A model generated the notes under the pieces. The model searched no databases. It was not told where the DNA came from and saw nothing but the letters and a program-made list of their open reading frames with translations. A stretch of 64,000 bases of DNA from a virus (taxonomy: Duplodnaviria > Heunggongvirae > Uroviricota > Caudoviricetes). Shown in pieces: positions 24,685 to 28,926 of this stretch (within the stretch, counting starts at the first letter, position 1; each line of letters opens with the position of its first letter). The DNA lies in IMG/VR virus record IMGVR_UViG_3300018080_000104, positions 67,454 through 131,453 of that record, one strand, 5' to 3'. Made by a program: the position numbers and the translations under genes.

Positions 24685-26340
24685 TTAAAAGGATTTGACA
24701 AAGTCGGCCATTACAGCCGGCGCAGCAGTGTCAAATCCTACAATATCCAGCATACCAGGATCCGACGCATCAGCCACGCTATACTCATTAGCCGCAAAAG
24801 CTACTGCAATGAGTTTTGCCGGCCGCTGCATTTTTTCGCGATACTGTTGCAGCGCTTGGACTGGATGGATGGGCCCCACCCAGTGCTCGTTGTCCGTATA
24901 GACAACAAACACGTCTACTGGTAGCTCGTGTTTCAAGGCATACAGTATCGGGAGCGAACAGTTTGTGCCCCCCGGCCGGTATCTGTGAGTCTTGCGTACG
25001 ATTTCCCGCATTGGTGTATTCGGCGGGTAATCCACGGGCACAACGCCGTATTTGCACCCGACCATGTCGGCATTCGAAAACACACACGTGTGTGTGTTCG
25101 TTTCCGTCCTGGATGTAATCATTGCCATAGCAGCCGCCGCTTCCCTGGCATGCAAAAACGTGCCAGCAATCACGCTGGCAGGCCACGCCATGGACGCCGA
25201 AATGTCGATTGCCAGCAAGTGATTCTTACCAGTGCATTCGACACTTTGGAACGTGCCGACGAAGGCATCGTCCAGTGCGCCAATCACACTGTGATCCGGC
25301 TGCCAGGTCAGTTTACCCCTTAGGCCGCAGCCCGCAGAATAAATGCTTGCAGCCATTAGTACAGCCATCGGATGCACGCGCTTACTGCACAACCAGTCAT
25401 GATCGTTGAGTTTCGCCGTGACCGTCTTAGCTGCTTCCGACAAAGGCACTAACAGCTTGACACTTGCCAGCTTGCCCAGGTTTCGCAGTAAGGCATGCGG
25501 AGGCATTTGTTCCAGCAGCGCCTCCCACACTTCCGGTGAATTGAGCGCCTCAGTGGGCAAGTGCTCGCGTTGCAGGCCGTATTCCCGGATCATTCCCGGG
25601 AGCGCCTTTACGGGCGCGCATTTTGCCTCTTCATAGGCCTGGATGATTTGTGGCCTATACTGCGGATCGGATGGAAAATGGCCATCCGCTGGCGGCGATT
25701 GTTTGCCAGTGGCCCACGCAAACGTTGCAGCCATTGCATTGCTAGTCGGCTTTGCGTGGCATTTTCGCAGGATGTCACAGTGGCTCCACGTGGCCCCTTT
25801 TTGGCCTTCGCGGACACGTCGGCTTCGGTATTTGCTGACCTGAAAAGCCAGCGCATCGACATCTTGCTCTGTGTACCAGCTGGCCACGCTATTGCGCAGC
25901 TTGCTGCCCCAGCCGCGGAAGTGCTGGACCATGTCGCAGAACTGCATAATGTGTGCGCCAATTCGGCAGACCTTACGTAGATTGGCTGCGACCATGTCGA
26001 CGCATTGTCGTTCGGCAGCCAGTCTTGCAAGGCAAAAGATTGCCGGATCGTTCTTTGGCGCTCGGCCGGAATCGGACACCTCGACGACCATATCGACGCA
26101 CCGTTTCGGATTTTCAGCCGTGCATTCCAGTAATGCCCGGCAGTTCGAAATGGTCAACTCTTTTTCGTTGGCATAGTATGTGCCGCCCTCGTTGCCGAGG
26201 ATCAAGAATCGTTCCAGTCGTTTCCAACAATCGAGTTGGAAACCAAAACCGCCTGCACGATTTGGCACTTGGTTTTTGCCGGGGATCGGCTCCGACGATA
26301 ATGTTTGTCGCGTGGATGTGTGACCAGCATAATCGGCCAT
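24685..26340 (-). CDS. rsr: Ro60/TROVE-domain RNA-binding protein with C-terminal vWA domain
   Basis: QVPNRAGGFGF...RLERFLILGNEGGTYY, GRAPKNDPAIFCLA, RGWG..LR..V..WY, KYR.R, LLRNLGKL, HPMAVL.A..Y..G.G, vWA MIDAS IDISASM, GGTNC, VYTDNE; AGGAGGAG ribosome-binding site. Confidence 0.97.
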   Translation of the reverse strand: MADYAGHTSTRQTLSSEPIPGKNQVPNRAGGFGFQLDCWKRLERFLILGNEGGTYYANEKELTISNCRALLECTAENPKRCVDMVVEVSDSGRAPKNDPAIFCLARLAAERQCVDMVAANLRKVCRIGAHIMQFCDMVQHFRGWGSKLRNSVASWYTEQDVDALAFQVSKYRSRRVREGQKGATWSHCDILRKCHAKPTSNAMAATFAWATGKQSPPADGHFPSDPQYRPQIIQAYEEAKCAPVKALPGMIREYGLQREHLPTEALNSPEVWEALLEQMPPHALLRNLGKLASVKLLVPLSEAAKTVTAKLNDHDWLCSKRVHPMAVLMAASIYSAGCGLRGKLTWQPDHSVIGALDDAFVGTFQSVECTGKNHLLAIDISASMAWPASVIAGTFLHAREAAAAMAMITSRTETNTHTCVFSNADMVGCKYGVVPVDYPPNTPMREIVRKTHRYRPGGTNCSLPILYALKHELPVDVFVVYTDNEHWVGPIHPVQALQQYREKMQRPAKLIAVAFAANEYSVADASDPGMLDIVGFDTAAPAVMADFVKSF

Positions 26341-26353
26341 TGGATACTCCTCC

Positions 26354-26448
26354 TGGCTAGAAAAGGAACGGCCGGGGCATTTGCCCGGCCGTTTACCCGG
26401 ACGCTTTCGCGTCCTTGCACATGCAGATAACCCTCTCGAATTCGGCCA
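26354..26448 (-). ncRNA. Y-RNA-like element 4, abutting the ro60 ribosome-binding site
   Basis: 5' UGGCCGAAU (26441-26448) and 3' UUUCUAGCCA (26354-26363); internal GGACGC-GAAA-GCGUCC hairpin and a 10-bp GC hairpin. Confidence 0.5.
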
Positions 26449-26478
26449 TCACAAGGGCTAATTGATCACGAAAGGGAG

Positions 26479-26551
26479 TGGCAGTCGGCGGAGTCGAACC
26501 GCTTTTATCCTAGCTATGCTAGAATCGTGTTGCCGTTACACTATTCTGCCA
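26479..26551 (-). tRNA. degenerate tRNA-like element (not a canonical decoding tRNA)
   Basis: UA-GUGU-AACGGCA-ACAC D arm; GCGG-UUCGACU-CCGC T arm; UGGCAG/CUGCCA terminal stem; middle arm is a 7-bp stem with a 5-nt CAUAG loop and no U33. Confidence 0.6.
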
Positions 26552-26558
26552 AATACCA

Positions 26559-26630
26559 TATTGCAGAGCTAATTGGTGCGACTGGTGCAAATTTACCATA
26601 AGTTAACCCAGCCTCTTCGGCCCTGCAATA
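26559..26630 (-). ncRNA. Y-RNA-like element 3 (short)
   Basis: UAUUGCAGGGC/GCUCUGCAAUA 11-bp terminal stem, then CGAAG opposite CCAAUUA, then GGCUGG/CCAGUC stem. Confidence 0.65.
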
Positions 26631-26638
26631 GGGTATAG

Positions 26639-26668
26639 TGCACACTAGCGGGGCCCTGCTAGTGTGCA
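26639..26668. other. perfect 11-bp hairpin separating Y-like elements 2 and 3
   Basis: TGCACACTAGC/GCTAGTGTGCA; on the minus strand the U6 run precedes the stem, so it is not a canonical terminator. Confidence 0.6.
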
Positions 26669-26675
26669 AAAAAGT

Positions 26676-26803
26676 CCTCGGCTAGTTGTTGAAGATCGGT
26701 TTTTAAGCCCGGGGTCGAACCGGGATCTCCGACATTGTCGGTGTTCTACCATTGAACTATCTTCGTTTTGATGGTAACGATAACGATCTTCATTCGGCCG
26801 AGG
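26676..26803 (-). ncRNA. Y-RNA-like element 2 with an embedded tRNA-like core (YrlA-like)
   Basis: CCUCGGC/GCCGAGG stem, CGAA opposite ACAACUA, UGAAGAUCG/CGAUCUUCA stem; inside are the D arm UAGUUC-AAUGGUA-GAAC and the T arm CCCGG-UUCGACC-CCGGG. Confidence 0.8.
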
Positions 26804-26817
26804 GGATCTCCGAAATA

Positions 26818-26887
26818 ACTTGTCGTAGCTAGTTGGATGGTTGGGGAGGTGATAACGGAGAACCCAACCATTTCGGCCGCGACAAGT
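26818..26887 (-). ncRNA. Y-RNA-like element 1 (short)
   Basis: ACUUGUCG/CGACAAGU stem, GGC/GCU, CGAA opposite CCAACUA, AUGGUUGGG/CCCAACCAU stem. Confidence 0.7.
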
Positions 26888-26899
26888 ATCCTCTGGACA

Positions 26900-26929
26900 A
26901 GCATACCCGGAGGAAAGCATACTTGTCAA
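26900..26929 (-). promoter_or_regulatory. sigma70-type promoter for the Y-RNA/ro60 unit
   Basis: TTGACA (26929-26924), 18-nt spacer, TATGCT (26905-26900); about 12 nt upstream of the 5' end of element 1. Confidence 0.6.
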
Positions 26930-27229
26930 TGGCTAAAACTATATTAGCCATCTCTGTTCCGCAGAGGATAGACTATTCACAAATCAGCATTACTGGCTCA
27001 TTAGCACATCAAAGAACTAATAGCACTGTAATACTGATTTGTTTTTTAACGCCCCGGCAACTGTAGTTAGACAACAGTGCCGGGGCTCGGCGATGGCCTT
27101 CCTGTTCAGGAGGCCAGGTGTTTTACCAGCTGCGGCGTGATGCAGCTAGTAATTGGTACCCGCATACCATGTAATAATGCCCGAAAAAATGGCGATTTTC
27201 AACCGTTTTTGGGCCAAAAGCGACAACTT

Positions 27230-27996: not shown

Positions 27997-28926
27997 TCAA
28001 AATGAATACACCAAGCCACCAAATCGCTGCAACAATTTAGTCTTTGAGTAAGACACGGGAAAGTTGTCGTCCCATTTAGTCCTCAGTGTAATGCAGTTGG
28101 CTTTCAGGCTACGCACCGAGCCAACCACTGTTCCTCTTGTTCTATGACTGGATTTCACTAAATCATAGTGGCGAAGACCGTTCTTCTCCGTACAAGTCTT
28201 GGTTGGATTTGCTTCCCAAACCTTCGCTCGTCTTGGTTGGATTTGGTATTCATTTCCAACCAATTTGTTGCTCTCTACTATCGCACAAGCGTCATGGCTG
28301 TGTTTCTTGGTCAAGCTAAGATTGAGCCGAGTTTGCTTAGTGATGTAGCCGAATGTCGCCTCATACATCAAACCTAACTTTTGTACTTGTTCTCTGAGAT
28401 AGGTCTTGCCAATTTCCACCAAAGAGAAGAACTTGCCATACTTGTATTTTGCGTGATTGAAACCAACTTCCTCAACCTTGACTTTCACGATGTTGAGTCT
28501 TTTCCCTAAGTCCTTGACTACACGCAAGATACATTCTTTTCTTTGTCTGATACTTGGAGCAATCTTTGATCCAGCTCTATTGCTGAACCTTGGTTGGCGA
28601 TTTCTAAGCCGAAACCGTCTGGCTCTGCGATAATTCCGTCTTTCTTCTACTTTCCTGCTCACATCCTGCCTGTGATCCAGTTGAGCGTGAAATACTACTT
28701 CATTGGTCTTGGTGTTCTTGACGGCAATGCCAACATGCTTCGCACCGTCGTCAACGCCAACCTCAAACTCTCCCACGGGATTATCTACCTTGCGGTTGAG
28801 TTGAATCGTGAAGGGAACCACTTGCTTGACCTTGGCTTTACCTTCACGCAGTAGTTTCCTACTGCGTGCTGGATGCGTTGGTAAGAGTGGTTTGCCTTCA
28901 CTGTCTATTACAAAAACAATACTCAT
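27997..28926 (-). CDS. isrB: IsrB-type RNA-guided nickase (PLMP + split RuvC + bridge helix, no HNH), 309 aa
   Basis: KPLLPTHPARSRKLLREGKAKV..VPFTIQL (PLMP/RRXRR), RuvC-I GVDDG, Arg-rich helix RRNYRRARRFRLR, RuvC-II VEE, RuvC-III HSHDACAI; no HNH or Cys insertion. Confidence 0.85.
   Translation of the reverse strand: MSIVFVIDSEGKPLLPTHPARSRKLLREGKAKVKQVVPFTIQLNRKVDNPVGEFEVGVDDGAKHVGIAVKNTKTNEVVFHAQLDHRQDVSRKVEERRNYRRARRFRLRNRQPRFSNRAGSKIAPSIRQRKECILRVVKDLGKRLNIVKVKVEEVGFNHAKYKYGKFFSLVEIGKTYLREQVQKLGLMYEATFGYITKQTRLNLSLTKKHSHDACAIVESNKLVGNEYQIQPRRAKVWEANPTKTCTEKNGLRHYDLVKSSHRTRGTVVGSVRSLKANCITLRTKWDDNFPVSYSKTKLLQRFGGLVYSF

What the first reader, a model, noticed from the sequence alone, without database searches (positions are those of the whole stretch)
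24685..26929. Phage ro60 preceded by a polycistronic array of four Y-RNA-like elements plus a tRNA mimic
Seen in sequence: the ~590 bp upstream of ro60 has no convincing ORF but contains four separate folds. Each has GGCCGAA on the 5' strand (plus-strand TTCGGCC at 26872, 26793, 26616, 26441) and, 50-110 nt later, a YUAGC 3' strand (CCAACUAGCU, CAACAACUAGCC, CCAAUUAGCU, UUUUCUAGCC). The flanking helices differ completely between copies yet always pair (ACUUGUCG/CGACAAGU, CCUCGGC/GCCGAGG, UAUUGCAG/CUGCAAUA), which amounts to covariation across paralogues. A TTGACA-N18-TATGCT promoter sits just upstream. Established: Ro60 binds a bulged helix (metazoan GGUCCGA.../...GACUAGCC; bacterial Yrl RNAs carry GNCGAA), and bacterial rsr loci usually have one or two Y RNAs; some phages encode Ro and Y RNA. 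Inference: this phage makes one precursor processed into a set of Y RNAs with different effector domains (two minimal, one tRNA-like, one leader-like). They could tether Ro60 to different partners or act as decoys against host tRNA-targeting nucleases. No rtcB or rtcA is visible in the window.
Basis: partly seen in the sequence, partly recalled or inferred. Interest (0 to 1): 0.92.

Follow-up and report, generated by a model that had tools for sequence, protein, structure and literature searches.

The report
Phage Ro60 gene with Y-RNA array
A 195-kb environmental phage carries a gene for the RNA-binding ring protein Ro60 behind about 570 bases encoding four predicted Ro60-binding small-RNA modules and two tRNA look-alikes; the pairing is real, but it is a variant of an already described phage and bacterial system, and such arrays are common in phages.

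Summary
The observation largely holds. ro60 (24685-26340, minus strand) is a canonical TROVE + vWA Ro60. The four GGCCGAA motifs lie exactly where stated.

- **Independent test.** A covariance model built only from other phage ro60 loci hits the 195-kb genome at two sites only, both in this array (Y3 33.2 bits, Y1 17.3 bits). It finds Y2 in local mode.
- **tRNA look-alikes.** Y2 encloses a tRNA-like core. A second, free-standing tRNA look-alike (T2) follows Y3.
- **Fourth fold.** The GGCCGAA at 26441 pairs better with the upstream CAAUUAGCC, giving a capped ("permuted") Ro-site hairpin followed by UUAUC, a form also seen in other phages. Next come a terminator-like hairpin and the ribosome-binding site.
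- **How unusual.** Such arrays are not rare: 62 of 79 distinct phage ro60 loci have at least one module, 18 have three or more and 8 have four or more. This scan has noted similar Ro60 and RNA arrays on other DNA.
- **What differs.** Rfam YrlA does not match. The tRNA core is in native D-to-T order, not YrlA's T-to-D order. One Ro site is capped.

Transcription, processing and Ro60 binding are untested. Verdict: a new variant of a known kind, of moderate interest.

The parts
24685..26340 (-). ro60 coding sequence, 551 aa
   Evidence: Pfam vWA_Ro60 2e-56 and TROVE 9e-25. PHROG 850 RNA-binding protein. PDB matches: an RO60 entry (9nen) and Xenopus Ro60 at E about 1e-103, D. radiodurans Rsr at 3e-86. 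The DxSxS MIDAS motif and the equivalents of K170, R174 and H187 are kept.
26900..26929 (-). sigma-70-like promoter match TTGACA-N18-TATGCT
   Evidence: A 10/12 match about 6 nt upstream of the Y1 stem. This is a consensus match only.
26818..26887 (-). Y1: short Y-RNA-like module with a pyrimidine-rich apical loop
   Evidence: MFE fold with z -5.0. R1 gives 17.3 bits, one of only two hits in the window and in the whole genome.
26676..26803 (-). Y2: Y-RNA-like module enclosing a tRNA-like core
   Evidence: MFE fold with z -4.6. R1 local match of 9.6 bits with an 85-nt insert.
26704..26763 (-). tRNA-like core of Y2: D arm, 5-bp stem with a 3-nt loop, T arm, 3-bp acceptor remnant, in native tRNA order
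   Evidence: Rfam tRNA 32.2 bits against a gathering score of 29. ARAGORN finds none. Rfam YrlA RF02553 gives no match here.
26640..26667 (-). 10-bp hairpin between Y2 and Y3, preceded by U6; role unknown, possibly a processing or 5'-protecting stem
   Evidence: Fold of -19.7 kcal/mol, z -3.6. No U tract follows on either strand, so it is not a terminator (seen in sequence).
26559..26630 (-). Y3: short Y-RNA-like module
   Evidence: R1 gives 33.2 bits, E 7e-6 over 64 kb on both strands. MFE fold.
26479..26550 (-). T2: free-standing tRNA look-alike with a 5-bp acceptor stem, D arm, 8-bp stem with a 3-nt loop, and T arm
   Evidence: Rfam tRNA 21.3 bits, below the gathering score. Cloverleaf MFE with z -2.65.
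26426..26476 (-). P4: capped (circularly permuted) Ro-site hairpin, reading CCCUUUCG / UGAUCAAUUA / GCC-loop-GGC / CGAAUU / CGAGAGGG, then UUAUC
   Evidence: It is the local MFE structure, and lies within 1.2 kcal/mol of the MFE of the whole leader. It is the only match in the window to a descriptor expected 0.075 times by shuffling. The same build occurs in L010, L011, L016, L052 and L059.
26399..26414 (-). 6-bp hairpin with a GAAA loop
   Evidence: Present in the MFE folds.
26357..26393 (-). terminator-like hairpin (10 pairs, 8 of them G-C) followed by CCUUUUCU
   Evidence: Consensus scan. Function untested.
26347..26354 (-). Shine-Dalgarno AGGAGGAG of ro60, directly after CUAGCC
   Evidence: Read from the sequence.

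Best explanation
The 570 nt upstream of the phage ro60 gene is an array of genes for Y-RNA-like partner RNAs of the phage's own Ro60 protein.

Structure. Each module presents the same protein-binding helix: G-G-C paired with G-C-Y, next to an internal loop with CGAA on one strand and ..CAAYUA on the other. Three modules (Y1, Y2, Y3) have the usual open-ended form. The fourth (P4) has the same loop in a capped hairpin. Y2 displays a tRNA-shaped core, and T2 is a separate tRNA look-alike. Both keep the D/T elbow but have a 3-nt loop in place of the anticodon loop.

Inferred mechanism:
1. One transcript starts at the promoter-like site at 26929-26900.
2. It mostly ends at the terminator-like hairpin at 26393-26367. 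Read-through supplies the ro60 mRNA.
3. Host RNases cut the transcript into separate RNAs. RNase P and RNase Z would cut at T2, and single-strand-specific nucleases would cut in the AU-rich linkers.
4. Ro60 binds each module.
5. The variable parts, namely the tRNA-like core and the different apical loops, couple Ro60 to host factors such as PNPase or tRNA-handling enzymes.

What is shown and what is not. Shown: the identity of the protein, the folds, and membership of the modules in a Ro60-linked RNA family. Inferred: transcription, processing, binding and the role in infection.
For: - Ro60 identity is established.
- Motif clustering: 4 of the 16 GGCCGAA copies in 64 kb lie on one strand within 438 nt.
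- Folds: the MFE structures of Y1-Y3 and T2 are as described, with z-scores from -2.0 to -5.0, and the whole 568-nt stretch has z -6.9.
- Independent family test: model R1 was built from 30 modules of other phage ro60 loci. Its two helices covary: 84% of cells are paired against 64% in shuffles, 105 cells show double changes against 38, and all slid controls score lower.
- R1 hits the window, and the whole 195-kb genome, only at Y3 and Y1. It finds Y2 locally.
- Across 82 phage ro60 loci, 151 of 152 R1 hits lie on the ro60 strand, mostly within 1 kb upstream.
- P4: energetics, descriptor statistics, and the same capped form plus UUAUC in other loci.
- Precedents: YrlA and YrlB are processed from one precursor upstream of rsr in M. 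smegmatis, and YrlA occurs in 22 phages (PMC4201824). Thermus phage phiLo Ro60 binds two upstream Yrl RNAs and forms a complex with PNPase (PMC12135203).
Against: - There is no expression or binding evidence of any kind for this locus.
- The three near-identical phage copies have identical upstream DNA, so there is no covariation within the lineage. The next Ro60 relative is only about 51% identical.
- Y1 and Y2 score weakly with R1 (17.3 and 9.6 bits).
- The 3' loop ends in UA here, where most relatives have UU.
- P4 has a lower stem of only 3 bp and is supported by a hand-made descriptor, not a calibrated model.
- Rfam YrlA and Rfam Y_RNA do not match.
- The promoter and terminator are consensus matches only.
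Confidence: 0.8

Rival explanations
1. The region acts mainly in cis. It would be one long structured leader of the ro60 mRNA whose Ro sites let Ro60 control its own synthesis, by termination at 26393-26367 or by blocking the ribosome-binding site, rather than a source of free Y RNAs. This could coexist with the best explanation.
For: - P4, a terminator-like hairpin and the SD follow each other within 130 nt, and CUAGCC abuts the SD.
- In many relatives the last module ends 16-30 nt before the start codon.
- In at least 8 distinct loci a capped Ro-site look-alike sits on the ro60 ribosome-binding site itself.
Against: - In the studied systems the upstream RNAs accumulate as separate Ro60-bound RNAs (PMC4201824; PMC12135203).
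- Y1-Y3 lie 200-540 nt from the SD.
- No alternative pairing that links Ro60 binding to the terminator was found.
Confidence: 0.12
2. One reading: four open-ended Y-type folds, the fourth closing by long-range pairing of UGGC (26447-26444) with GCCA (26354-26351) and so enclosing the two hairpins.
For: GAGAGGG can pair with CCUUUUC and UGGC with GCCA (seen in sequence). UUAUC follows the upper 5' strand, as in the open-ended modules.
Against: - The forced fold is 8.6 kcal/mol worse than the MFE, whereas the capped hairpin is within 1.2 kcal/mol.
- The 3' loop would be 2 nt instead of 7-8 nt.
- R1 gives no meaningful match.
- If the terminator works, the 3' strand is not transcribed.
Confidence: 0.06
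3. The tRNA-like pieces are decayed phage tRNA genes without a function of their own, and the rest is fortuitous structure.
For: Ro60 genes often sit beside real phage tRNA arrays, as in L023, L025, L035 and L045. T2 scores below the Rfam threshold.
Against: - The D and T arms are intact while both anticodon loops are cut to 3 nt.
- The modules match an independent family model.
- T-arm hairpins near ro60 are strongly biased to its strand, 144 against 10.
Confidence: 0.02

Closest known systems
Bacterial and mycobacteriophage Rsr (Ro60) with YrlA/YrlB RNAs (Chen et al. 2014, PMC4201824; Rfam RF02553)
   Same: The RNAs are encoded within 1 kb of ro60 on the same strand. They carry the GNCGAA motif in a stem closed by the two ends. 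One RNA has tRNA-like D and T arms, and others are short hairpins with pyrimidine-rich loops. A precursor upstream of rsr is known in M. smegmatis.
   Different: RF02553 does not match. The tRNA-like core is in native D-to-T order and hangs from the acceptor side, whereas YrlA has T before D with a capped acceptor stem. There are four Ro sites rather than one or two, and one of them is a capped hairpin. No rtcB or rtcA accompanies the locus.
Thermus phage phiLo Ro60 with Yrl1 and Yrl2 (PMC12135203)
   Same: A phage-encoded Ro60 with CGAA-bearing stem / internal-loop / stem RNAs directly upstream. Binding was shown there by EMSA and cryo-EM, and a complex forms with host PNPase.
   Different: phiLo has two RNAs and no tRNA-like module was reported. 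Nothing has been tested for the present locus.
Metazoan and Deinococcus Y RNAs (Rfam Y_RNA RF00019; Yrn1/Yrn2)
   Same: A conserved helix formed by the 5' and 3' ends binds Ro60, and a variable module binds an effector. Several paralogous Y RNAs exist per genome. D. radiodurans has four small RNAs upstream of rsr.
   Different: There is no Rfam Y_RNA match at E up to 10. The motif is GGCCGAA / CAAYUAGC rather than GGUCCGA / GACUAG.
Multi-module RNA arrays upstream of ro60 in uncultivated phages
   Same: The modules share the consensus (GGGCCGAAG, stem, GGUUAUC, loop, stem, CAnnAACUU, GCCC), the same strand and the same position. The array sizes are similar. In L094 a tRNA body with a capped Ro site is followed by three short modules.
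   Different: The window's 3' loops end in UA, not UU. Its long module has the tRNA core in native order. Its capped site stands outside a tRNA body and is followed by a terminator-like hairpin.

Membership tests
Ro60 / TROVE protein | TROVE (HEAT-repeat ring) domain plus a C-terminal vWA domain with a DxSxS MIDAS motif | tested here: met
   Pfam TROVE and vWA_Ro60 both score above their cut-offs. DISAS aligns with DVSAS of the RO60 entry 9nen and with DVSAS of Xenopus Ro60.
Ro60 / TROVE protein | RNA-binding residues of vertebrate Ro60 are conserved (H187, K170, R174 in vertebrate numbering) | tested here: met
   All three align to identical residues. H187S loses Y RNA binding according to PMC11277228. 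The role of K170 and R174 is recalled from memory and was not checked.
Y RNA-like (Yrl) partner RNA of Ro60 | Encoded within a few kb of ro60 on the same strand | tested here: met
   All elements lie 20-550 nt upstream on the minus strand.
Y RNA-like (Yrl) partner RNA of Ro60 | GNCGAA(N0-1)G motif near the 5' end | tested here: met
   GNCGAA is present in all four modules. The full form with the following G is present in Y2 and Y3 only.
Y RNA-like (Yrl) partner RNA of Ro60 | A stem closed by the 5' and 3' ends with an internal loop at the motif, supported by covariation | tested here: met
   MFE folds. Covariation is seen in relatives and across the three paralogues. R1 matches Y3, Y1 and Y2. 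P4 meets this only in capped form.
Y RNA-like (Yrl) partner RNA of Ro60 | Bound and stabilised by Ro60, and accumulates as a discrete small RNA | not testable with these tools
   No RNA run was listed for this DNA. Binding needs EMSA or RIP.
YrlA (Rfam RF02553) | Score at or above the family's gathering score of 69 bits | tested here: not met
   There is no match in the array at E up to 10. The only hit in the genome is 11.8 bits, elsewhere.
YrlA (Rfam RF02553) | Permuted tRNA-like domain: T arm, capped acceptor stem, then D arm | tested here: not met
   Y2 has the D arm, a mini anticodon stem, then the T arm in native order. The YrlA consensus and 6 of 6 long modules in other loci have T before D.
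tRNA | Cloverleaf with a 7-nt anticodon loop and a 7-bp acceptor stem, recognised by tRNA finders | tested here: not met
   ARAGORN finds none. Both elements have 3-nt loops. T2 scores 21.3 bits against a gathering score of 29, and the Y2 core has a 3-bp acceptor.
Metazoan Y RNA (Rfam RF00019) | Match to the family covariance model | tested here: not met
   It is not among the matches at E up to 10 in 26200-27100.

The most novel reading that the evidence does not exclude
The capped Ro site P4, the terminator-like hairpin and the CUAGCC that abuts the SD would together form a Ro60-responsive operator. The phage would then set Ro60 output against the amount of Y RNA. This would be one form of an undescribed, widespread class of Y-RNA mimics in phage ro60 mRNA leaders. 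In at least 8 other loci a capped [YUU]-hairpin-[CGAA] element with covarying stems sits directly on the ro60 ribosome-binding site.
Probability: 0.2. Interest if true: 0.6.

Novelty: new variant of a known kind. Interest (0 to 1): 0.4.

Why it matters
Ro60 and its Y RNAs are a conserved but poorly understood RNA-surveillance particle, and phage copies are now being linked to counter-defence. In the preprint PMC11482910, Bas63 gp130, which its authors describe as structurally similar to Ro60, was identified as a counter to the ppl defence system. Thermus phage phiLo Ro60 engages host PNPase (PMC12135203).

This locus is compact and clearly delimited: one promoter-like site, four Ro sites of two topologies, two tRNA look-alikes, one terminator-like hairpin and one gene. 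That makes it a convenient construct for three questions:
- Do different Y modules recruit different partners?
- How many connections between a tRNA body and a Ro site does evolution allow?
- Does Ro60 regulate its own mRNA?

The family model built here also shows that multi-module arrays are common in uncultivated phages. The papers I read describe only one or two RNAs per phage locus.

Tried and rejected
- **Phage GenBank collection.** blastn of the locus gave no match.
- **Viral contigs with the single protein.** The search for related loci gave no relatives. An alignment of 30 homologues was needed.
- **Near-identical phage copies L002-L004.** Their upstream region is identical, so they give no covariation.
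- **Closest Ro60 relatives.** L093 has only 45 nt upstream. P0005 and one copy of P0006 came without DNA.
- **First hand-made descriptors.** GNCGAA + NUAG + stem, and generic two-helix versions, were too loose, with many chance hits. I dropped them in favour of the covariance model.
- **Rfam.** YrlA RF02553 and Y_RNA gave no match in the array.
- **A second covariance model for capped sites.** I did not build it, because MAFFT put the seven seeds in two registers. I used a descriptor with shuffles instead.
- **RNA sequencing runs.** No RNA holder was listed, and for kind 'rna' none was listed. DNA holders are sediment and seawater metagenomes that may be the source samples.
Rejected on energy and loop geometry.
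- **The review PMC10870794.** Not held.
- **A paper search for K170A/R174A.** It found no Ro60 paper that names them.
Full report
**Setting**

The window is positions 67454-131453 of a 195,453-bp virus record with direct terminal repeats. The same DNA occurs in sediment and seawater metagenomes. Three near-identical phage contigs carry an identical Ro60 protein and an identical upstream region. The next Ro60 relative in 5.8 billion proteins is about 51% identical. All comparison is therefore at family level.

**The gene**

The ORF 24685-26340 on the minus strand (551 aa) matches Pfam vWA_Ro60 (2e-56) and TROVE (9e-25), and PHROG 850. It aligns end to end with an RO60 entry (9nen) and with Xenopus Ro60 (E about 1e-103), and with D. 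radiodurans Rsr (3e-86). The MIDAS DxSxS motif and the residues aligned to vertebrate K170, R174 and H187 are kept. H187S abolishes Y RNA binding according to PMC11277228. It is a canonical Ro60.

**The upstream region**

Between ro60 and the next called gene lie 889 nt without a called gene. The 94-aa ORF across Y1 and Y2 has no family match.

GGCCGAA occurs 16 times in the window. Four of these lie on the minus strand at exactly the stated coordinates, within 438 nt.

Folded alone or as one 568-nt RNA, the region gives the following elements in order:
- Y1 (26887-26818), a short module.
- Y2 (26803-26676), which encloses a tRNA-like core.
- A 10-bp hairpin (26667-26640).
- Y3 (26630-26559), a short module.
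- A cloverleaf, T2 (26550-26479).

In Y1-Y3 the layout is the same. A lower stem differs in each copy and ends in G-G-C paired with G-C-Y. Then comes an internal loop of CGAA(N) against 7-8 nt ending in CAACUA or CAAUUA. Then comes an upper stem, followed by UUAUC, UUAAC or, after a 6-nt insertion, GUUAUC.

The Y2 core reaches the Rfam tRNA threshold (32.2 bits). T2 does not (21.3 bits). ARAGORN calls neither. Both have a 3-nt loop where the anticodon loop should be.

**Independent test of family membership**

An alignment of Ro60 homologues retrieved 80 viral loci, out of 466 viral contigs that encode a relative. GNCGAA is enriched about two-fold on the ro60 strand in the 400 nt upstream of the gene. 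Many loci carry 3-5 copies of GGGCCGAAG.

I took thirty short modules from these loci, none from the window, and aligned them. The consensus is GGGCCGAAG, 5 nt, GGGUUAUC, loop, CCC, 5 nt, CAnnAACUU, GCCC. Both helices covary:
- 84% of cells are paired, against 64% in shuffles.
- 105 cells have changes on both sides, against 38 in shuffles.
- Every slid control scores lower.
- The N of GNC changes from C to U together with its partner changing from G to A.

The lower stem was a selection criterion for these seeds; the upper stem was not.

The covariance model R1 built from this alignment hits the 64-kb window on both strands at only two places. These are Y3 (33.2 bits, E 7e-6) and Y1 (17.3 bits), and the same two are the only hits in the whole genome. 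With filters off it also aligns Y2 locally, with an 85-nt insert (9.6 bits).

Across 82 loci, 151 of 152 R1 hits lie on the ro60 strand, nearly all just upstream or downstream of the gene. Y1-Y3 are therefore members of a Ro60-linked RNA family. This is more than a resemblance by eye.

**How unusual is an array of four?**

At E of 0.01 or better, counts among 79 distinct loci are as follows:

| R1 modules per locus | Distinct loci |
|---|---|
| at least 1 | 62 |
| 3 or more | 18 |
| 4 or more | 8 |

R1 misses capped sites and some long ones, so these are lower bounds. The closest relative with DNA upstream of ro60, L094, has a tRNA body with a capped Ro site followed by three short modules.

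Published cases describe fewer RNAs per locus:
- M. smegmatis, S. Typhimurium and phage phiLo each have two.
- D. radiodurans has four small RNAs upstream of rsr.
- 355 putative YrlAs were reported across 276 genomes.

Earlier runs of this scan have also reported Ro60-like genes with RNA arrays in many other phage genomes. The array is real but typical of its clade.

**The fourth element**

Its 5' half fits the family consensus well (GGCCGAA, 7 nt, GGGUUAUC). Its proposed 3' partner does not fit:
- The forced long-range fold is 8.6 kcal/mol above the MFE.
- It leaves a 2-nt 3' loop.

Just upstream lies CAAUUAGCC, the same 8-mer as the 3' strand of Y3, flanked by CCCUUUCG, which pairs with the CGAGAGGG that follows CGAAUU. 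This gives a hairpin (26476-26431). Its internal loop is the Ro-site loop. Its "lower stem" (GCC/GGC) is capped by an 8-nt loop. UUAUC follows it.

This hairpin is the MFE of the local 65 nt and lies within 1.2 kcal/mol of the leader's MFE. A descriptor for this build has one match in the window, this one, against 0.075 expected from shuffles. The descriptor requires a hairpin, CGAA, an upper stem with at least 7 of 8 pairs, and a UUAYC tail.

The same capped build followed by UUAUC occurs in L010 (twice), L011, L016 (twice), L052 and L059. There it replaces the anticodon loop of a tRNA body, and UUAUC is that tRNA's variable loop. I therefore read element 4 as a capped Ro site, P4.

After P4 come a GAAA-capped hairpin (26414-26399), a terminator-like hairpin with CCUUUUCU (26393-26357), and CUAGCC, which runs into the AGGAGGAG ribosome-binding site.

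**Topology of the tRNA mimics**

The Rfam YrlA consensus, and all six long modules in other loci where both arms could be recognised, have the T arm before the D arm. That is a permuted tRNA whose anticodon stem continues into the Ro stem.

In tandem arrays such as L010, the same DNA can be read in two ways. It can be read as native tRNA bodies with capped Ro sites, or as YrlA units: RF02553 scores 37.9 bits across two adjacent units. The two forms are circular permutations of one another.

The window's Y2 differs from both. Its core runs D arm, mini stem-loop, T arm, and hangs from the Ro stem by a 3-bp acceptor remnant. RF02553 does not match it. T2 followed by P4 is a further arrangement, a native tRNA look-alike followed by a separate capped site. 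These are the features that make the locus a variant rather than a plain new member.

**Mechanism**

The promoter-like site ends about 6 nt before Y1, no other promoter-like site lies inside the array, and the only terminator-like site on that strand within the array lies after P4. The simplest reading is one transcript of about 535 nt, with read-through into ro60. This is inference. The precedent is a common YrlA/YrlB precursor upstream of rsr in M. smegmatis, where YrlA is also cut by RNase P and receives CCA.

T2 has the longest acceptor stem (5 pairs), so it is the likeliest RNase P and RNase Z site. Cuts there would free the 3' end of Y3 and the 5' end of P4.

By analogy, Ro60 then binds each module. 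The tRNA-like core would couple it to PNPase or tRNA enzymes, as in the D. radiodurans and phiLo complexes. The genome encodes no RtcB and no RNA ligase family, so an rtc-type repair role carried out by phage enzymes is unlikely. Because both mimics lack an anticodon loop, they cannot be substrates of anticodon nucleases. At most they could compete for body-binding proteins (inference).

**A lead beyond the window**

In at least 8 distinct loci a capped [YUU]-hairpin-[CGAA] element with covarying stems sits on the ro60 ribosome-binding site or start codon. This suggests translational autoregulation by a Y-RNA mimic. I found no paper describing it, but my literature search was limited. The window has only a weaker echo, in P4, the terminator-like hairpin and the SD-adjacent CUAGCC.

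**Verdict**

The fourth fold needs redrawing, and the claim of rarity does not hold. The locus is a new variant of a known kind, with no functional data. Interest is moderate.

Noticed in passing
L034, L048, L050, L055 (=L057), L077, L080 (=L081), L085: 0-70 nt before the ro60 match; L093:20-48: A capped Ro-site look-alike ([..YUU], a GC hairpin with covarying stems, then CGAA) lies directly on the ro60 Shine-Dalgarno sequence or start codon. It may be a translational operator for Ro60 autoregulation. R1 gives no hit in L048, L050, L055, L057 or L077.
   Followed up: partly
L010:260-530, L011:2755-2860, L016:2370-2640, L052:2198-2321, L059:2653-2775, L080:2575-2700, L094:1636-1750: These are tRNA bodies, four of them above the Rfam tRNA threshold, whose anticodon loop is replaced by a capped Ro-binding hairpin. 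In tandem copies the same DNA also reads as YrlA (RF02553 37.9 bits across two units in L010). The two forms are therefore circular permutations of one another.
   Followed up: partly
window 26340-26900: CTAGC occurs 7 times here, 5 as CUAGC and 2 as GCUAG in the minus-strand RNA, against about 0.7 per kb in the window overall. Besides the Ro-site 3' strands, it forms the stems of the 26667-26640 hairpin and of the anticodon-like arm of T2. This is unexplained.
   Followed up: no
window 26331-26356: GCC, which directly follows CUA and directly precedes the SD, and GGCCGAU, which spans the start codon and codons 2-3, could form a weak capped Ro-site-like hairpin around the ribosome-binding site. 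It would have 3 bp, a 16-nt loop, and CGAU in place of CGAA. It resembles L093 but is too weak to call.
   Followed up: no
82 phage ro60 loci (L005-L087): T-arm-type hairpins number 144 on the ro60 strand against 10 on the other strand. Several ro60 genes sit inside or beside true phage tRNA arrays (L023, L025, L035, L045).
   Followed up: partly
G000:C1:16409-16481 (outside the window): This is the only other tRNA-model hit in the 195-kb phage genome (36 bits, minus strand), so the phage has at most one ordinary tRNA gene.
   Followed up: no
window 27997-28926 (-): A 309-aa protein with an RRXRR domain (Pfam PF14239, 3.8e-47) lies about 1 kb upstream of the array.
   Followed up: no
L005:6865-6921 (-): There is a Rfam Hammerhead_II ribozyme match (46.4 bits, above the gathering score) in a phage-like contig that also carries ro60.
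   Followed up: no
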